This document shows positions 34,801 through 58,800 of a DNA stretch of 64,000 bases, one piece after another. The stretch lies in the NCBI GenBank assembly GCA_963783305.1, contig CAWAMW010000015.1, positions 256,001 to 320,000 on the forward strand, read 5' to 3'. Numbering within the stretch: position 1 is the first letter of the stretch; the number at the start of each line of letters is the position of its first letter. A program made the position numbers. Source of the stretch: an uncultured Gemmatimonadales bacterium. GTDB taxonomy: Bacteria > Gemmatimonadota > Gemmatimonadetes > Longimicrobiales > RSA9.

Positions 34801-37800
34801 GCACGCTCTCCGACGCCGTCACCTCGCCGCTGTGACGACCGCCCTCGAAGAACGCCGCCGGCTTGTCCAGGTCCGACCCCGTGGCCTCGTTCGTCAGCGT
34901 GACCTGCAGGATCGGACGACCCTCGAAGCTGCGACCCACCTCGTACAGCTCCACCAGCCCCGGGTACCGCTCGTTCCAGCGACGCAGCCACTCGTACATG
35001 ACGTCCGCCGTGTGGTAGCGGTCGAACGTCAGCGACTCCCCCGCCTCGTACTCCACGCCCTCGTGACGCACGCGCGGGAAATAGCTGATGCCGTGGCGGG
35101 TGCCGGACACCGTATACCAGGCGCTGTCGCGCTCCGACTCGGCGACGTACGTCGGGGCCACCGCCGCCATGGATGCCGGCCGGAGCGCGGAGGAGGCCGG
35201 CGCAGGGTCGCCCATGCCGGATTGGGCCGCGCAGGCCGCCGAAATCACGGGAACGGCGAGGATGCTGGCGAGGATCGGGAGACGACGGTGTCTGGACATG
35301 GTGTCGGTGGCTCGGGTCGCGTGGCGGGCAGGCTGTCCGGGGAGGTTGGGGCGGGCGGCGCGCCGGGGCAAGGTGCGGGCGACCGCCACCCGCTGTCCCC
35401 GTCCGCCATTCCCCTGCCCCGGCTGCCGACGTATGGAATGGCCATGGCGACCATTATCCGGATACGGGAGGTCGGCGCGGAGATCGAAGTCGTTCCGGCC
35501 GTATACGACCCGGCCGTCGTCGAGCATCTCAGAACGATCCCCGGCCGGCGCTGGAGCGCACCCGGGCGCGCGTGGCTCATCCCCCGCACCGCGCAGGGGC
35601 TCGACACGATCCTCTCCCTCCCCGGCGTGAAAATCGATCTGGACCCGGCGCTCGTCCACCTCGTCCGGCGGCCGTACGATCCCGTGGCGCCTCGGGAGGA
35701 CGCCACGCTCCAGCTCCTGCGAAGGGTATCCGAGGAGCTGCGGCTGCTCCGCTACAGCCCCCGCACGCGCAAGCTCTACCTGGGCCATCTGCGGCGATTC
35801 CTCGAACGCCACCCCGCGGCCGCCCACGACCTGACAGCGGGCACGGTGCGCCGACACCTCCTGGAGCTCGAGGCCGAGAACCGCTCCACCTCCTACCTGA
35901 ACCAGGCCCTGAGCGCCATCCGGTTCGCCGCTAAGCTCCTGGGCGCCACCGTCCAGATCGAGAGCGTCGGCCGACCCAAACGCCCGCGCCACCTGCCCTC
36001 CGTCCTCTCGCCCCAGGACGTTCGCCGCATCCTCAAGGCACCCCGCCATCCCCGCCACCGCCTCGCCCTCACACTCGCGTATTCCGCCGGGCTCCGCGTG
36101 GGTGAACTCGTGCGCCTGCGCGTCGGGGACGTCGATTCCGATCGGCGGCTCATCCACGTCCACGAAGGCAAAGGCCGCAAGGATCGGTACACTCTTCTGG
36201 CCGAAACAACCGCCAGGGCACTCTACCCTTTCCTGGATGGCGCCGATGCGAACGACTATATATTCCCCGGCGCCCGCACCGGACGCCACCTCACCGTTCG
36301 CAGCATCCAGAAAGTCTTCGAGCGAGCACTGCGCGACTCCGGCGTCCAGAAGCACGCCACGATCCACACGCTGAGGCACAGCTTCGCCACGCACCTGCTT
36401 GAAAATGGCGTGAGCGTGCGGCATATTCAGGAGCTTCTCGGCCACAGCAGCCCCAAGACGACCGAGATCTACACCCACATCGCCCAGAGCGACCTGCGCC
36501 GAATCACCAACCCCCTGGACGCACCGCTCGACTGAAGGGTGGATTTATTTCGCCTCCATCAAACATCTTAGCGAACACCCATTCGCCAGTCTCACCCAAA
36601 GTCACTACATCATGAACTGGGTTTCGCTAATCCTTTAGTTAAGCGCCATGCGCGCAGATGAAGTCAACTGGAGCTTGGTCAGCGCGAGCCACGGGCATGG
36701 TCGGCTGTCGGAGGTCGCTTGCAGCTGCGTCAGGCGTGCGTTGACAGGACAGAAGCGCGTGGCGGGCCTAGATGGCTTGCCAGACATGCCGGATTCGCGG
36801 CTGACGCGGCATTCGATGCCGGCGAGGTCGGCGCGGAACACGCTGGCACCTGTTCGGACTGCGGTCGCTCGAGTACCGTCGGCCGACGATGCGGACCGGG
36901 CTCGGTGAGCGTTGCGAAGTTTCGAGGACGTTGCGCCTGGAGGTCGCGGAGCGTCGGATCGCGGTCTGGACGCTCCGATGCGTGTGGCGACGCAAGTCAG
37001 CCTGAGCTCCGAACGCCGTGTAGCTGAGCTCGACACGTCGGGGGACGGAAGTGAATGTCTTCAGTCCGTGCGGTTCTGACGTTGAATACTGGGTCGATGC
37101 TGAGCCGCCGGTCCTCCGTGCGCTCCGCGAACGGTACACTGAGTTTGGCCTTCCGCCGTACCAGGTCGTCTTCGTAGCGGTGCGCGGGGAGATTGGGCCG
37201 GTGTTGGACTGCGGCTTCTGTACTGAGTACGACGGCAGTTTCAAGGTGGAGGAACTGGTCGAAATGGACTCGCCGGGCACCGGGGAGTGCGAGACCGAGA
37301 TCGGTGGCCACTCAGGGAGAACGGCGCTTAACAAACGGTTGGCGCCTGCGCGGCCTGCGGCCGCTCCGGAGAACCCGCCGCGGCCGTACTGGGCGCTGGT
37401 GAGGGGCGTGAAGTTTCGAAGGCGGTCGCGCGCTGGAGGTTGTCGGAGCGGCGGTTCGCCAACCTGGAAACGTTATACGCCAGGTGAACGAGTATTGGGG
37501 GGTGCGGTGACTGAGTACGTTCTCAATGGTTGGCGCGTGGAGCACGACGCCGGTGCCACGACAGAAGCGTTGAAGCGAGCTCAGTATCGGGGCCCTGAGA
37601 GCTGTGGGTGCCTGCCCTGCCAGAACTTCGTCGCAATGCGTTCCGAAGCGTTCCCGCGCGAGTTCATGGAACTGCTCGGTGAGCTGGGAATCCCGCCGGT
37701 TTCGGAAGTCGAGGTCTATCACAACGCACGGCTTGAAAACGGGAGGCACTCCTACGGAGGGTGGTTCCACTTCGTAGGAAGGGTTGTCGAGGGGCCGGAC

Positions 37801-55800: not shown

Positions 55801-58800
55801 GCGCTTCGAGGAGAACATGCACCGCCACGAGGGCATGGACTGGGCGGAGGTGCGGTCGCGGCTGGAAGGGTCGGCCGACAAGCTGCGGTCACTGGGCGAG
55901 ATGGAGCGTACGGGCGGAGAGCCGGACGTGGTGGGTCGGGACGAGGAAACGGGCGAGTACATCTTCTGGGACTGCGCGCCGGAGAGCCCGAAGGGGCGGC
56001 GGAGCGTGTGCTACGATCGCGAGGCGCTGGAGTCACGGAAGAAGCACAAGCCGGAGACCAGCGCGATGGACATGGCGGCCGAGATGGGCGCCGTGCTGCT
56101 GACCGAGGAGCAGTACCGCAGACTGCAGGAGCTCGGCCCGGTGGACGCGAAGACGTCGAGCTGGCTGCGGACGCCGGAGCGGGTACGGGAGCTCGGGGGC
56201 GCCATCTTCGGCGATTACCGGTTCGGCCGGGTGTTCGTCTACCACAACGGGGCCGAGTCGTACTACGGGGCCCGCGGGTTCCGGTGCGAGCTCAGGGTCT
56301 GAAGGGGGTCTGAGCCATGACGAGCTGGATCTTCGCGGGAGTGGGGGCGCTCTTCATGGCGCTGGCGGTGCCGATGATCACGCGGCGACTGCGTCGGAAC
56401 TGGTGGTACGGGCTCCGGACGGTGCACACCATGAGCGACGAGCGGGTGTGGGCGGGGAGTGGGTCGAGGTCATGAGGATGGATTTACGGCTGCGTGGGTG
56501 TGGCCGCGGGCGCGTGGGCCTGACCGATGGGAAAGGCCGGACCCGGACCCGGACGGGGGGCTACCTGGGCAGCGACTGCGGCAGATCGGCGATCACGTAG
56601 GCCATGACGGCGAGGGCGGCCACGCACCGGGCGAACTCCTCGGGGTCGAGCTTGTCGAGGGTGTCGGCCTCGCTGTGGTGGTACCAGAAGTACTTCTCGC
56701 CGTCGACGTTCAGGCCCATGCCGGGGACGCCGCGCTCCATGATGGGGCCGATGTCGGCGCCGCCGCCGCCGCGGATGATGGCGCCGGCCTCGATGCGCTC
56801 GAGGAGGCTGCCGACGGCGGAGACTAGGTCGAAGGCGGCGTCGGAGCCGGTGAAGCCGAAGCCGATGGGGTCGAACACGCCGGAATCGGTCTCAATGGCG
56901 AGGACGTGATCGTCGAGGTCGTCGGAATGGGCGTCGCGATAGGCGCGGCCGCCGCGTAGCCCGTTCTCCTCGTTGGTCCAGAGGACGACGCGAACGGTGC
57001 GGCGGGGCTGGAGGCCCAGGGCCTTCATGAGTCGGACGGCCTCCCACGCGGCGACGCTCCCGCCGCCGTCATCCATGGCGCCCTGCCCCACGTCCCAGGA
57101 GTCGATGTGGCCGCCGAGCACGACCACCTCGTCCGGGCGCTCGGAGCCGCGCAGCTCCGCCACCACGTTCCGCGACAGCACCTCGCCCTCGTCGCGGGCG
57201 TCCATCTCCACCCGGATCACGATGCGCTCGCCGCGCTCCTGCATGCGGTGGAGCATGAGGGCGTCCTCGACGGTGATGGCGGCGTGGGGGATGCGGCGGA
57301 CATCGTCGTCGTAGCGCATCATGCCGGTGTGGGGCGAGTTCATGGAGAACGACGCGACGGAGCGGACCAGGCTCGCCACCGCGCCCGCACGGGCGGCCGC
57401 CACGGCGCCACTGGTGCGGTAGCGCACGGTCTCGCCGTAGCTGGTGAACGGCACGTCCCATACGACGATCTTGCCCGCTGCCCCGCCAGCGCGCGCCGCG
57501 AGCTCCTCGAAGCTGGAGACGACGAGCGCCTCCGCGGTGATCCCGCCGTCGGGCGTGCCGATGCTGCCGCCGAGCCCGAGCATGGCCAGCTCCGCCTCGC
57601 GCGGCTCGATCAGCGTGACCGACTCCTCCCCGCGGACCCAGCGCGGGACCATGGCGGGCTCGCCGCGAACGTTCGCCAGGTCGTCGGCGGACATGCCCCG
57701 CAGGATCCAGTCGATGGCCTGCTCCAGGCTCTCGGAGCCGCTCAGCCGGGGGCCGAAGCGATCCACGAGCTCGGCCAGGCGGCTCCAGCCGGTGGAATCG
57801 GCGAGAGCGGCGTCGATCAGGCGATCGGCCTCGGCGCGGTAGGCGGCCGGAACGGCCGCGGGCGCGAGGGCCCCCGCGGGCGCGGGCGTCTGCGCCAGCA
57901 GGGCCGGGGGAGCCATTAGGCCGACGAGCGCGGCCGTGAGCAGCGGGAGCAAGCGGGTCATCGTGATCGAACGAAGCATCGGGAGCATCCTGGGCATGGG
58001 TAGCAGAGCGGAGCGGCGGACGGTCCTCACCGCGTGGCCGCCACGCGATCGCGGCCGTCGCCCTTGGCGCGGTAGAGAGCCGAGTCGGCGGCGGCTACCA
58101 GGTCGCGGGAAGTGTCCATCTCGTCGTTGTACTGGGCAACGCCCGCGCTGACCGTGAACGGCGGGAGATCGGCGATCTCGCTGATCGCCAGCCGGATCGA
58201 CTCGGCGAAGCGGAGCCCGGGTTCCACGGTGGCGCCCGACAGGATGGTGATGAACTCCTCGCCGCCGTAGCGAGCGGACAGGTCCATGCGGCGAGTGCGG
58301 CCCGTGAGGACACCGACAAAGGCGCGGAGCGCGTCGTCGCCGATCATGTGGCCGTGCTCGTCGTTGTAGTCCTTGAAGCGATCGATGTCGAAGAGGACGA
58401 CGGCAAGTTCCCGCCCGCGCTGGGCGGCCGCGAACTCCTTCTCGAGGAACAGTTCGGCCAGACGACGGTTCGGCACGTCCGTCAGCTCGTCCTGCAGCGC
58501 CAGCCGCTCGGCTCGCGCGCGCTCCTGGTGGAGCAGCTCGCTTACCAGCCCGACGGTCAGGCCGATGGAGATGTAGGCGGCCACGACGGCCAGGAGCATG
58601 ATCCAGTTGGTGGTGATGTCCAGCGCGATGACCAGCACCTGCACCAAGGACAGGACCACCATCCCCACGAGCATGGCGATGGCCACGCCGTTCCACCCGC
58701 GGTAGTACGCCAGGAGGAAAGCGGGGACGAGGGCGAGGAGCCAGAGCAGGAGCTCGTACTCGACCGACGGCTCGGGGAACCAGAAAGTGGCCACGGCCGG

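What a model noticed while it worked through the whole genome (the two positions that open the first line are those of the whole stretch)
35321..56475. Chromosomal integron with a XerA-like same-strand integrase and 130-160-nt attC sites, split over several arrays
A tyrosine recombinase gene (g02566) is followed on the same strand by about 30 short ORFs separated by 13 copies of a 130-160-nt imperfect palindrome that starts GCTTAAC and ends GTTAAGC, and further copies of the same repeat head cassette runs at the end of C16, the start of C12 and on C14. Boldest reading: this is a large sedentary integron of a Gemmatimonadota sulfate reducer run by a divergent integrase that scores better as archaeal XerA than as IntI and reads in the same direction as its cassettes. 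New would be an integron lineage that standard IntI/attC models miss, with a pool of mostly unknown cassette genes.
Evidence so far: find_repeats on C15:289000-308500: families of 9-14 copies, spacing 392-1467 nt, each with RYYYAAC (GCTTAAC) at the 5' and GTTRRRY (GTTAAGC/GTTATAC) at the 3' end and complementary inner boxes with unpaired bases. Genome-wide pattern search (3 mismatches): 13 and 12 hits on C15:293328-301210, 6 and 5 on C16:794411-799294, 1-2 on C12:268-1231, 1 on C14:7902-8184, all + strand; 2 stray single hits on C7. g02566 404 aa: NF040815 XerA/integron integrase 213 bits (cut 220), TIGR02249 integron integrase 201 bits (cut 265), 130-aa N-terminal extension. Cassettes g02567-g02597: 20 of 31 without any Pfam/NCBIfam/Swiss-Prot row; the other 11 are Imm50, DUF192, antitoxin, CrtO, TonB_C, RibD_C x3, cupin [...]
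(Added by a program. Inside this text positions count along the whole contig: contig position 256,001 is position 1 of the stretch shown here. "Call 12" and the like, gene names such as g00115 and contig names such as C1 are that model's own, and its searches are not shown. The text may have been shortened before it was handed on; [...] marks where a part breaks off. The agent that wrote the report below was given it as the finding of a first reader that could run no searches.)

Follow-up and report, generated by a model that had tools for sequence, protein, structure and literature searches.

The report
Integron-like array with HARP-Xer recombinase
A Gemmatimonadota chromosome carries a real row of swappable gene cassettes built like an integron, but the recombinase at its head lacks the segment that defines integron integrases and has a fork-DNA-binding (HARP) domain instead, pointing to a second kind of integron.

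Summary
The repeats are real. Thirteen intact 150-153-nt attC-like sites lie at 37326-45359 on the + strand, directly behind a same-strand tyrosine recombinase gene (35438-36535), with more copies on contigs C16, C12 and C14. Each site's left arm pairs with the right arm of the preceding site, not with its own. This is the footprint of cassette excision and insertion.

The recombinase keeps all six catalytic residues. It lacks the roughly 41-residue IntI-specific insertion and falls below the IntI and XerA cut-offs. The genome has its own XerC and XerD and no canonical IntI. Its N-terminal ~77 residues are homologous to the HARP domain of SNF2 helicases.

The pairing of gene and same-strand array recurs in 8 of 9 related genomes examined. 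The cassette footprint also appears behind homologues in other phyla.

- Intact sites stop at 45.4 kb, with remnants to 47.6 kb, not at 56.5 kb.
- There are about 14 cassettes, not 30.
- Same-strand integrases are already known.

I found no published description. This scan has noted the same kind before on other DNA. Recombination activity is inferred, not shown.

The parts
35438..36535 (+). Tyrosine recombinase gene. The ORF is open from 35321; the likely start is the ATG at 35438. HARP-Xer type, with catalytic R259, K284, H349, R352, H375 and Y384 (numbering of the 404-aa ORF).
   Evidence: these residues are invariant in 31 aligned sequences; Lys-motif to HxLRH spacing is 66 here against 107 in IntI.
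35444..35674 (+). N-terminal HARP-like domain of 77 aa, with the fold beta-beta-alpha-beta-beta-alpha-beta-alpha.
   Evidence: pLDDT 88.4. (T4 UvsW N-domain Z 6.9 and 6.5, XPB N-domain Z 5.5 and 5.3, SMARCAL1 HARP 4o66 Z 4.0). (PF07443 sub-threshold in 17 of 31 homologues). (the domain profile hits SNF2 helicases that carry Pfam HARP).
36399..36427 (+). Promoter-like site TTGAAA-17-CATATT inside the 3' end of the recombinase gene, facing the cassettes. A consensus match only.
   Evidence: 1 found against 0.3 expected.
36536..36644 (+). attI-like region: an A+T-richer spacer (GC 0.48 over the first 120 nt) ending in the orphan half-site GTTAAGC at 36638-36644. Its 10-nt arm is the exact inverted copy of the left arm of attC 1.
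36840..36962 (+). Degenerate attC inside the first cassette interval. It implies two fused cassettes.
   Evidence: E 5.4e-6; families D8, D10.
37326..37478 (+). attC 1
37996..38145 (+). attC 2
38707..38859 (+). attC 3
39104..39253 (+). attC 4 (divergent subtype)
39753..39903 (+). attC 5
40143..40295 (+). attC 6
40879..41029 (+). attC 7
41290..41441 (+). attC 8
41836..41986 (+). attC 9
42597..42747 (+). attC 10
44062..44214 (+). attC 11
44642..44794 (+). attC 12 (divergent subtype)
45208..45359 (+). attC 13, the last intact site
39275..39727 (+). Cassette ORF with Imm50 (immunity protein 50)
   Evidence: E 2.6e-10.
40329..40862 (+). Cassette ORF with DUF192
   Evidence: E 7.2e-26.
42051..42568 (+). 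Toxin-antitoxin cassette: PF09720 antitoxin (42051-42275) and ParE toxin (42272-42568)
37035..37315 (+). Cassette segment that is 94.3% identical over 283 nt to C16:799430-799712, where it also lies between two attC sites
46559..46583 (+). Remnant of an attC right arm, with R' mutated to GTCAAGC
   Evidence: family D7.
47202..47589 (+). Scrambled attC fragments at 47202-47239 and 47526-47589: the fossil end of the array

Best explanation
This is a sedentary chromosomal cassette array that works like an integron but is run by a different branch of the Xer/IntI recombinase superfamily.

Shown by the sequence:
1. A catalytically intact tyrosine recombinase gene is followed on the same strand, 103 nt after its stop, by an orphan half-site (GTTAAGC), and then by about 14 cassettes.
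2. Each cassette ends in a 150-153-nt site that begins ...TAAC and ends GTTA...
3. The 10-14 nt outside TAAC at the left of each site are the inverted copy of the 10-14 nt after GTTA of the preceding site. Each cassette therefore carries both halves of one long stem, and strand exchange must have happened within the invariant GTTA/TAAC.
4. As a single strand the site folds into a 14-bp R stem, an asymmetric unpaired spacer (AAA(C) opposite (T)GGAAAC), an 8-bp L stem without bulges, and a three-way junction with a conserved side hairpin and a long variable stem. All three inner helices covary across 8 genomes.
5. Position 11 of the R stem is always C opposite A on the top strand. On the bottom strand this is a G.T wobble.

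Inferred:
- The neighbouring recombinase excises cassettes as circles and inserts them at the attI-like site, using folded single-stranded attC as IntI does.
- Its HARP domain, a reader of branched or forked DNA, takes over structure recognition from the missing alpha-I2 insertion. It probably reads the junction, the spacer bubble or the position-11 mismatch.
- Cassettes are transcribed by read-through or from a promoter in the 3' end of the recombinase gene.
For: Cassette footprint:
- Identity of each left arm to the preceding right arm is 8.1 of 10 variable positions, against 4.4 of 10 to all other arms. None of 100,000 permutations reached this (one row was mis-registered there, which works against the result).
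- In a sequence-agnostic test, 9 of 13 junctions are exact over 11 positions, against 0 hits in 10 kb upstream.
- Position 11 is A against G in all 12 correctly registered rows.

Fold:
- Reconstituted sites fold at -30 to -52 kcal/mol.
- For the three helices, 83.1% of cells are paired against 67.4% in shuffles (0 of 500) and at most 46.7% when slid. Fifteen of 24 pairs show changes on both sides.

Recombinase:
- The six catalytic residues are invariant.
- It matches IntI only in two pieces, query 131-305 with IntI 4-177 and query 322-399 with IntI 240-317 of 2a3v. TIGR02249 positions 179-234 are unmatched.
- Motif spacing is 65-68 in 21 HARP-type rows against 107 in 15 IntI rows.

No other candidate enzyme:
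- No TIGR02249 hit over the cut-off in the 95.96%-complete genome.
- Separate XerC (337.5, cut-off 335.15) and XerD (336.8, cut-off 329.6) are present.

Conserved linkage:
- Same-strand downstream arrays occur in 8 of 9 related loci.
- An orphan site with an exact inverted copy at the first attC occurs in 4 of 10 loci, against 0 of 34 control sites.
- Footprint hits: 53 downstream (48 with A/G at position 11) and 0 upstream in Gemmatimonadota. In other phyla there are 19 in 71.7 kb downstream (17 with A/G) against 6 in 155 kb upstream.
- Beside canonical IntI genes there are 7 hits in 20 loci and none has A/G.

HARP domain.

Other support: a cassette paralogue in a second array, and a toxin-antitoxin cassette as is typical of sedentary integrons.
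Against: - There is no direct evidence of recombination. The public runs gave only assembled contigs and no clean excision or circle joint.
- The strand that folds cannot be told from energy. Top and bottom strands average about -44.6 and -44.3 kcal/mol.
- The window's own N-domain has no Pfam HARP hit, and the structural matches are moderate (Z below 8, Foldseek E at least 0.15).
- One of the 9 related loci (L114) has no array.
- Seven genomes of the phylum carry both recombinase kinds, so action in trans by IntI cannot be excluded there.
- The array has decayed parts: a degenerate site at 36840 and remnants after 45.4 kb.
- Cury et al. 2016 concluded that recombinases near attC sites without the IntI domain are not IntI.
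Confidence: 0.75

Rival explanations
1. This is an ordinary integron array that has lost its IntI (a CALIN), or whose IntI lies in unassembled DNA. The neighbouring recombinase is an unrelated Xer-like enzyme that happens to sit there.
For: - CALINs are common, and Cury et al. 2016 found that recombinases lacking the IntI domain near attC sites are scattered in the tree and judged them not to be IntI.
- The genome is 95.96% complete, not 100%.
- Canonical IntI is frequent in the phylum, in 164 of 401 genomes.
- The arrays on C16, C12 and C14 have no adjacent recombinase.
Against: - The same recombinase family heads same-strand arrays in 8 of 9 related loci.
- An orphan half-site matching the first cassette follows its stop codon in 4 of 10 loci.
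- The same-genus genome G167 also lacks IntI.
- The site grammar (14-bp R stem with A/G at position 11) was not seen beside canonical IntI, 0 of 7 hits.
- The attC HMM finds nothing in four canonical-IntI loci.
Confidence: 0.08
2. The array is a fossil. The cassettes were assembled in the past and are no longer mobile, and the recombinase now serves another purpose or none.
For: - There is a degenerate attC at 36840-36962 and remnants at 46.5-47.6 kb.
- No excision joint appeared in the public contigs.
- The arrays are chromosomal and sedentary.
Against: - Thirteen sites keep intact arms, with 10 of 13 junctions identical over 9 or more nt.
- The catalytic residues are intact and the gene has no stop codons.
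- A 94%-identical cassette sits in a second array.
- The site structure is maintained by compensatory change across genomes.
Confidence: 0.12
3. The repeats are not recombination sites. They are intergenic structured repeats, such as REP-like elements, terminators or small RNAs, spread through an island of short genes.
For: They are intergenic, strongly folding and on the same strand as the genes. Rfam holds no family that would name them.
Against: A structural repeat does not explain why each left arm matches the preceding site's right arm in cassette-specific sequence. It also does not explain the orphan half-site behind the recombinase gene or the RYYYAAC/GTTRRRY ends.
Confidence: 0.02

Closest known systems
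Canonical integrons (IntI + attI + attC), above all sedentary chromosomal integrons and the 'inverted integrase' group with intI on the cassette strand
   Same: - Array of mostly promoterless short ORFs, each followed by an imperfect palindrome with RYYYAAC...GTTRRRY ends.
- Crossover in GTT, so that R'' matches the previous R'.
- attI next to the recombinase.
- Homogeneous attC sites within a genome.
- A toxin-antitoxin cassette, mostly unknown cargo, and extra arrays without an integrase.
   Different: - The recombinase lacks the roughly 41-residue IntI-specific insertion. That segment holds K209, Y210, W219 and P232, which contact the extrahelical bases in VchIntIA (PMC3053210, passages read). 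It carries an N-terminal HARP domain instead.
- It falls outside the IntI clade: 16 IntI rows form one clade at 100 support.
- The R stem is 14 bp with a fixed C.A/G.T at position 11, instead of about 7 bp.
- The L stem has no bulged bases.
- There is a three-way junction with a conserved side hairpin.
- Sites are 150-153 nt long.
Archaeal integrons (Ghaly et al. 2022, preprint 10.1101/2022.02.06.479319, passages read)
   Same: attI lies immediately downstream of intI, and the cassette arrays have folded attC sites. An archaeal homologue of this recombinase exists (L007, Undinarchaeales MAG, 44% identity).
   Different: That paper defines its IntIs by the IntI-specific additional domain. The enzyme here has none.
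XerA/XerC/XerD chromosome-dimer resolvases, and XerCD use of folded single-stranded CTX phage DNA (the latter recalled, not checked here)
   Same: - Best structural and sequence matches are XerA 4a8e and 5hxy, aligned end to end.
- No IntI insertion.
- The long R arm resembles a full Xer binding arm.
- Xer enzymes are known to accept a folded single-strand substrate.
   Different: - Below the XerA cut-off (213.4 against 220).
- The genome has its own XerC and XerD.
- It has a HARP domain.
- It sits at the head of a multi-site cassette array rather than acting at a single dif site.
pdif modules of Acinetobacter plasmids (recalled)
   Same: Gene modules bounded by Xer-type sites and thought to move by Xer recombination.
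   Different: pdif sites are 28-bp double-stranded dif-like sites in alternating orientation. Here the sites are 150-nt folded palindromes, all in one orientation, with cassette-specific arms.
HARP domains of SMARCAL1-type SNF2 annealing helicases, and the related N-domains of T4 UvsW and archaeal XPB (the link between these three is recalled from Mason et al. 2014, not read)
   Same: The N-domain profile hits SNF2 helicases bearing Pfam HARP at E about 1e-21 to 1e-24. The top structural matches are UvsW, XPB and HARP.
   Different: Here the domain is fused to a tyrosine recombinase, not to a helicase motor.

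Membership tests
Integron integrase IntI (TIGR02249; IntegronFinder definition) | Tyrosine recombinase catalytic domain with R-K-H-R-H-Y | tested here: met
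   PF00589 at 144.9 bits. R259, K284, H349, R352, H375 and Y384 are invariant in A2.
Integron integrase IntI (TIGR02249; IntegronFinder definition) | IntI-specific additional domain (alpha-I2 region near patch III) | tested here: not met
   The 2a3v alignment skips IntI residues 178-239. TIGR02249 positions 179-234 are unmatched. Motif spacing is 66 against 107 in 15 IntI rows.
Integron integrase IntI (TIGR02249; IntegronFinder definition) | Score over the curated cut-off (265 bits) | tested here: not met
   200.9 bits in two stretches. Four true IntI controls score 480-492 in one stretch.
Integron integrase IntI (TIGR02249; IntegronFinder definition) | Membership of the monophyletic IntI clade | tested here: not met
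   Sixteen IntI rows form one clade at 100 support. The window's protein lies in a separate 22-row clade at 98 support (quick tree).
Integron (the system) | attC sites: imperfect palindromes with RYYYAAC and GTTRRRY ends that fold as single strands | tested here: met
Integron (the system) | Cassette units: R'' complementary to the R' of the preceding site (crossover in GTT) | tested here: met
   (0 of 100,000 permutations).
Integron (the system) | attI next to the integrase gene | tested here: met
   The orphan GTTAAGC at 36638 matches the left arm of attC 1. The same is seen in 4 of 10 loci.
Integron (the system) | Two extrahelical bases on one side of the L box of the folded bottom strand | tested here: not met
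   The L stem GGTTGGCG/CGCCAACC is a perfect 8-bp helix in the consensus, fully paired as drawn in 11 of the 13 window copies. The asymmetry lies in the spacer and at the junction.
Integron (the system) | Recombination of cassettes by the integrase | not testable with these tools
   Only assembled contigs were on hand.
XerA (NF040815) | Score over the cut-off (220 bits) and a role as the cell's dimer resolvase | tested here: not met
   213.4 bits. The genome has XerC and XerD over their own cut-offs.
HARP domain (PF07443) | Pfam gathering score of 25 bits | tested here: not met
   No hit for the window's own protein. Sub-threshold hits occur in 17 of 31 homologues, best E 2e-4.
HARP domain (PF07443) | Homology to HARP of SNF2 helicases by profile and by fold | tested here: met
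   All six long hits of the N-domain profile that I checked are SNF2 helicases (E about 1e-21 to 1e-24). Four of them have PF07443 over the cut-off. VIA-align gives UvsW Z 6.9, XPB Z 5.5 and HARP 4o66 Z 4.0 with rmsd 1.9 over 47 residues. The fold evidence alone would be inconclusive.

The most novel reading that the evidence does not exclude
HARP-Xer recombinases with their long-stemmed, Y-shaped attC sites form a second, ancient class of integron spread over several phyla: Gemmatimonadota, Bacteroidota, Spirochaetota, Firmicutes and Archaea. They evolved beside IntI, not from it. They read folded DNA with a fork-binding HARP domain, and a fixed position-11 mismatch serves as the strand marker. 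Standard tools file them as CALINs or miss them, so the true reach of integron-type gene capture is underestimated.
Probability: 0.5. Interest if true: 0.9.

Novelty: new variant of a known kind. Interest (0 to 1): 0.8.

Why it matters
Integron integrases are defined in the literature and in IntegronFinder by the IntI-specific insertion that grips the extrahelical bases of attC. Recombinases without it near attC sites were explicitly set aside as not IntI (Cury et al. 2016).

A conserved family that lacks the insertion yet heads arrays bearing the full cassette footprint would have three consequences:
- Folded-site cassette recombination arose, or persists, with a different structure-reading module.
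- Many arrays now called CALINs, and phyla thought poor in integrons, may have their own integrase.
- The HARP fusion, the position-11 mismatch and the three-way junction give concrete, mutable targets for testing how a tyrosine recombinase chooses a folded strand.

Tried and rejected
- Rfam scan of 35000-58000 at E<=1 gave only a chance bZIP match, and Rfam has no attC family.
- Public runs held at most 0.25 of the sampled words, all as Logan contigs. Laying four of them showed attC-type repeats at high summed depth, joined to other sequences. All joints had short sides (20-57 nt) at 90% likeness. I do not count them as excision evidence or as a habitat.
- Folding energy of top against bottom strand showed no difference, so the strand is not called.
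- RNAalifold on the multi-genome MAFFT alignment found almost nothing. I therefore named the helices by hand from the window's fold and counted pairs.
- Foldseek of the N-domain against the PDB gave no match at E<=0.001.
- PADLOC gave 0 hits for 22 cassette ORFs.
Several contigs end at or just after the gene, so nothing can be said about arrays there.
- Four canonical-IntI loci of the phylum showed no repeats by self-BLAST and no hit of the attC HMM. I could not locate their attC sites, so the comparison of site grammar rests on the few footprint hits.
- cassette BLAST against the related arrays found no shared cassette between genomes.
- Seven paper searches found no description of an insertion-less or HARP-bearing integron integrase. 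The library lacks most subscription journals.

Full report
**1. The observation**

The repeat finder on 33000-58000 gave direct-repeat families of 9-14 copies between 37320 and 45371. Thirteen copies align at 83% mean column identity. An HMM built from them finds 28 places in the 17-contig, 4.35-Mb genome, all on the + strand:
- 15 on C15: 13 with E<=1e-30, a degenerate copy at window 36840-36962, and a fragment at 47526-47589;
- 9 on C16:793779-800975;
- 2 on C12:263-1258;
- 2 on C14:7785-8313.

From R'' to R' the 13 sites measure 150-153 nt. Only TAAC and GTTA are invariant at the ends. GCTTAAC occurs in 5 of 13 sites and GTTAAGC in 4 of 13.

Intact sites stop at 45359. After that only remnants are seen, at 46559-46583, 47202-47239 and 47526-47589. 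ORFs from 47.6 to 56.5 kb are not bounded by recognisable sites. From 54.0 kb their GC3 (0.88-0.93) equals that of flanking core genes, against 0.64-0.74 in the cassettes.

**2. The cassette footprint**

I compared the 14 nt ending at the C of TAAC (left arm, reverse-complemented) with the 14 nt starting at the G of GTTA.
- Each left arm matches the right arm of the preceding site, not that of its own site.
- Over the ten variable positions the mean identity is 8.1 against 4.4 for all other pairings. None of 100,000 permutations reached the observed sum. Row 6 was mis-registered by 2 nt in that call, which lowers the observed value.
- Ten of 13 junctions are identical over 9-10 nt.
- The first attC matches an orphan GTTAAGCGCC at 36638, 103 nt after the recombinase stop codon. 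This orphan follows an A+T-richer spacer and no attC.

This is what excision and insertion with a crossover inside GTT produces in integrons. The orphan site marks the left end as the insertion end.

In all 12 correctly registered rows, position 11 is A on the right arm and G on the reverse-complemented left arm. This gives a C.A mismatch in the folded top strand and a G.T wobble in the folded bottom strand.

**3. Fold of the site**

With the R arm reconstituted, both strands fold at -30 to -52 kcal/mol. The means are about -44.6 (top) and -44.3 (bottom), so energy does not name the active strand.

The fold has these parts:
- a 10 + 3 bp R stem;
- an unpaired spacer, AAA(C) opposite (T)GGAAAC;
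- an 8-bp L stem, GGTTGGCG/CGCCAACC, without bulges;
- a side hairpin on the 5' arm;
- a long variable stem.

On 25 sites from 8 genomes, the three inner helices that I named by hand are paired in 83.1% of cells. Shuffles give 67.4% (0 of 500 as high) and slid partners give at most 46.7%. Fifteen of 24 pairs show changes on both sides. The structure was derived from the window's own sites, which favours it in the slid control. The double changes between genomes do not depend on that.

**4. The recombinase**

The ORF 35321-36535 has PF00589 and a SAM-like core-binding domain. It scores 213.4 for NF040815 (cut-off 220) and 200.9 for TIGR02249 (cut-off 265), the latter in two stretches.

- Against solved structures it aligns end to end with XerA (4a8e, 5hxy). 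With VchIntIA (2a3v) it aligns as query 131-305 to IntI 4-177 and query 322-399 to IntI 240-317, leaving IntI 178-239 without a partner.
- That segment holds K209, Y210, W219 and P232, which contact the extrahelical bases (Larouche and Roy 2011, PMC3053210, passages read).
- The distance from the GKGxKDR motif to HxLRH is 65-68 residues in 21 HARP-type rows (of 27; the motif regex missed 6). It is 107 in 15 IntI rows (of 16), and 74 in the genome's XerC.
- The six catalytic residues are invariant in 31 aligned family members.
- The homologues and a minus-strand M14 peptidase gene upstream place the true start at 35438.

**5. No other enzyme in the genome**

A six-frame search of the 95.96%-complete genome finds no TIGR02249 match over the cut-off. 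The best match is this gene. The two other Xer-like genes are a XerC (337.5 against 335.15) and a XerD (336.8 against 329.6). The array's recombinase is therefore a third, separate enzyme.

**6. The N-terminal domain**

Residues 41-118 are conserved in the family and model confidently as beta-beta-alpha-beta-beta-alpha-beta-alpha (pLDDT 88.4).
- Foldseek gives no match at E<=0.001. Its top rows are XPB N-domains (E 0.15) and SMARCAL1 HARP 4o66 (E 0.27).
- VIA-align over 48,161 chains ranks the T4 UvsW N-domain first (Z 6.9 and 6.5), then XPB (Z 5.5 and 5.3), with HARP 4o66 at Z 4.0 (rmsd 1.9 over 47 residues). These Z values alone are not conclusive.
- Pfam HARP (PF07443) hits 17 of 31 family members below threshold, with best E 2e-4. 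It does not hit the window's protein.
- A profile of 16 N-domains finds 5,135 representative proteins at E<=0.001 and 1,068 at E<=1e-10. Many carry 2-4 tandem copies.
- All six long hits that I checked are SNF2 helicases, and four carry Pfam HARP over its cut-off. One 789-aa hit is a recombinase.

I take the domain to be a HARP homologue. That HARP, the UvsW N-domain and the XPB N-domain are one class of structure-specific DNA binders is recalled (Mason et al. 2014, not read).

**7. Relatives**

The family is large: 6,624 proteins at E<=1e-20 among 8,000 scored, with the best at 64% identity.

In 401 genomes of the phylum:
- 19 have a match at E<=1e-60, counting the window's own genome. Without it the tally is family f1 3/7, f2 13/70 and f7 2/30. 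Many of these matches sit at contig ends.
- Canonical IntI is over the cut-off in 164 of 401 (f4 92/166, f5 57/93, f1 2/7, f2 7/70). It is absent from G000 and from the same-genus G167, and seven genomes have both kinds. Two of the 401 genomes (G097, G182) are unpublished. Without them the tally is 162 of 399.

Of 9 loci with downstream DNA, 8 carry same-strand arrays of about 150-170-nt sites with the same layout and covarying L stems. L114 does not.

An orphan GTTR site 102-230 nt after the stop, with an exact 10-nt inverted copy at the first attC, is found in 4 of 10 loci. The control gives 0 of 34 upstream GTTR sites.

A footprint test that uses no site sequence looks for a GTT arm with an inverted copy ending AAC 100-3500 nt downstream, with positions 1-10 and 12 equal:

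| Set of loci | Hits downstream | With A/G at position 11 | Hits upstream |
|---|---|---|---|
| Gemmatimonadota | 53 | 48 | 0 |
| Other phyla (L009, L010, L017, L026, L027, L033, L039, L042) | 19 in 71.7 kb | 17 | 6 in 155 kb (4 in one locus) |

Ten further loci of other phyla gave none; most have under 2 kb of downstream DNA. Beside canonical IntI genes there are 7 hits in 20 loci, none with A/G at position 11.

**8. Tree**

A quick maximum-likelihood tree of 65 rows, rooted on the genome's XerC and XerD, gives these results:
- The 16 IntI rows form one long-branched clade (support 100).
- The window's protein lies in a 22-row HARP-type clade (98).
- Both lie inside an 86-supported polytomy with short XerA-like recombinases.

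The HARP type is not nested in the sampled IntI. Whether the two are sisters is open.

**9. Cargo and expression**

Of 22 ORFs tested between 36.6 and 47.2 kb, four have Pfam families. These are Imm50, DUF192, and a PF09720 antitoxin with a ParE toxin. None has a PADLOC hit. A 283-nt cassette segment (37035-37315) is 94.3% identical to C16:799430-799712, which also lies between two attC sites. A promoter-like match at 36399-36427 faces the cassettes; this is weak evidence.

**10. Literature and earlier notes**

Seven searches found no description of an integron-type array run by an insertion-less or HARP-bearing recombinase.
- Ghaly et al. 2022 (preprint, passages read) state that the additional domain defines IntI.
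- Cury et al. 2016 (preprint, passages read) found 50 of 18,808 non-IntI recombinases near attC sites and concluded they are not IntI. They also describe same-strand integrases.
- Ghaly et al. 2021 (passage read) list Gemmatimonadota among the phyla with integrons.
- Supplements were not consulted.

This scan's own notes report the same kind of system in other genomes: Gemmatimonadota, Bacteroidota, Clostridia and Archaea. These are unchecked AI notes. I reached the missing insertion and the HARP lead before reading them and tested both here.

**11. Verdict**

This is a real cassette array of the integron kind with an attI-like site. It is most likely run by the adjacent HARP-Xer recombinase. 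It works like an integron but fails the membership tests for IntI. Recombination activity, the active strand and the role of the HARP domain are inferred.

Noticed in passing
window 33281-36478 (-): A 1065-aa antisense ORF with GC3 0.87 runs over the whole recombinase gene. Only its part up to about 35300 is a real gene (Peptidase_M14); the rest is a high-GC artefact. GC3-based gene picking chose it over the recombinase.
   Followed up: partly
window 50239-52777: Three RibD_C-domain paralogues and a cupin lie in a row on the + strand, with intermediate GC3 (0.73-0.81) and no recognisable attC between them. They may be old cassettes with erased sites or an ordinary island.
   Followed up: no
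G000:C16:793779-800975, C12:263-1258, C14:7785-8313: Further arrays of the same site type have no recombinase of this family nearby. At least two junctions show the same left-arm/previous-right-arm match. The C16 array ends 2.5 kb before the contig end.
   Followed up: partly
Loci L089, L090, L091, L094, L095, L097, L100, L103 and L007, L018, L024: Contigs very often end within a few hundred bases downstream of the recombinase gene. This fits assembly breaking in repeat arrays.
   Followed up: no
L007:8577-8762 (+): A second HARP-like domain ORF lies about 1.2 kb upstream of the archaeal (Undinarchaeales MAG) homologue.
   Followed up: no
L018 upstream 9.5 kb: Four cassette-footprint hits lie upstream of this Paludibacter homologue, whose contig ends 192 nt after the gene. 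There may be another array on the other side.
   Followed up: no
One search hits P0122-P0271: The HARP-like module occurs in 2-4 tandem copies in many proteins of 150-890 aa. Some have no other Pfam domain (P0122 at 341 aa, P0160 at 157 aa).
   Followed up: partly
window 37170-37603, 43680-44113, 44982-45415: In two coded soil runs (X2, X4) the attC positions reach summed contig depths of about 150-550, against 0-25 over most cassette bodies. This site type appears abundant there, but contigs of other organisms are summed.
   Followed up: no
Phylum sample: Canonical IntI is over the cut-off in 164 of 401 Gemmatimonadota genomes, far more than the roughly 10-20% quoted for Proteobacteria in the review read.
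   Followed up: no
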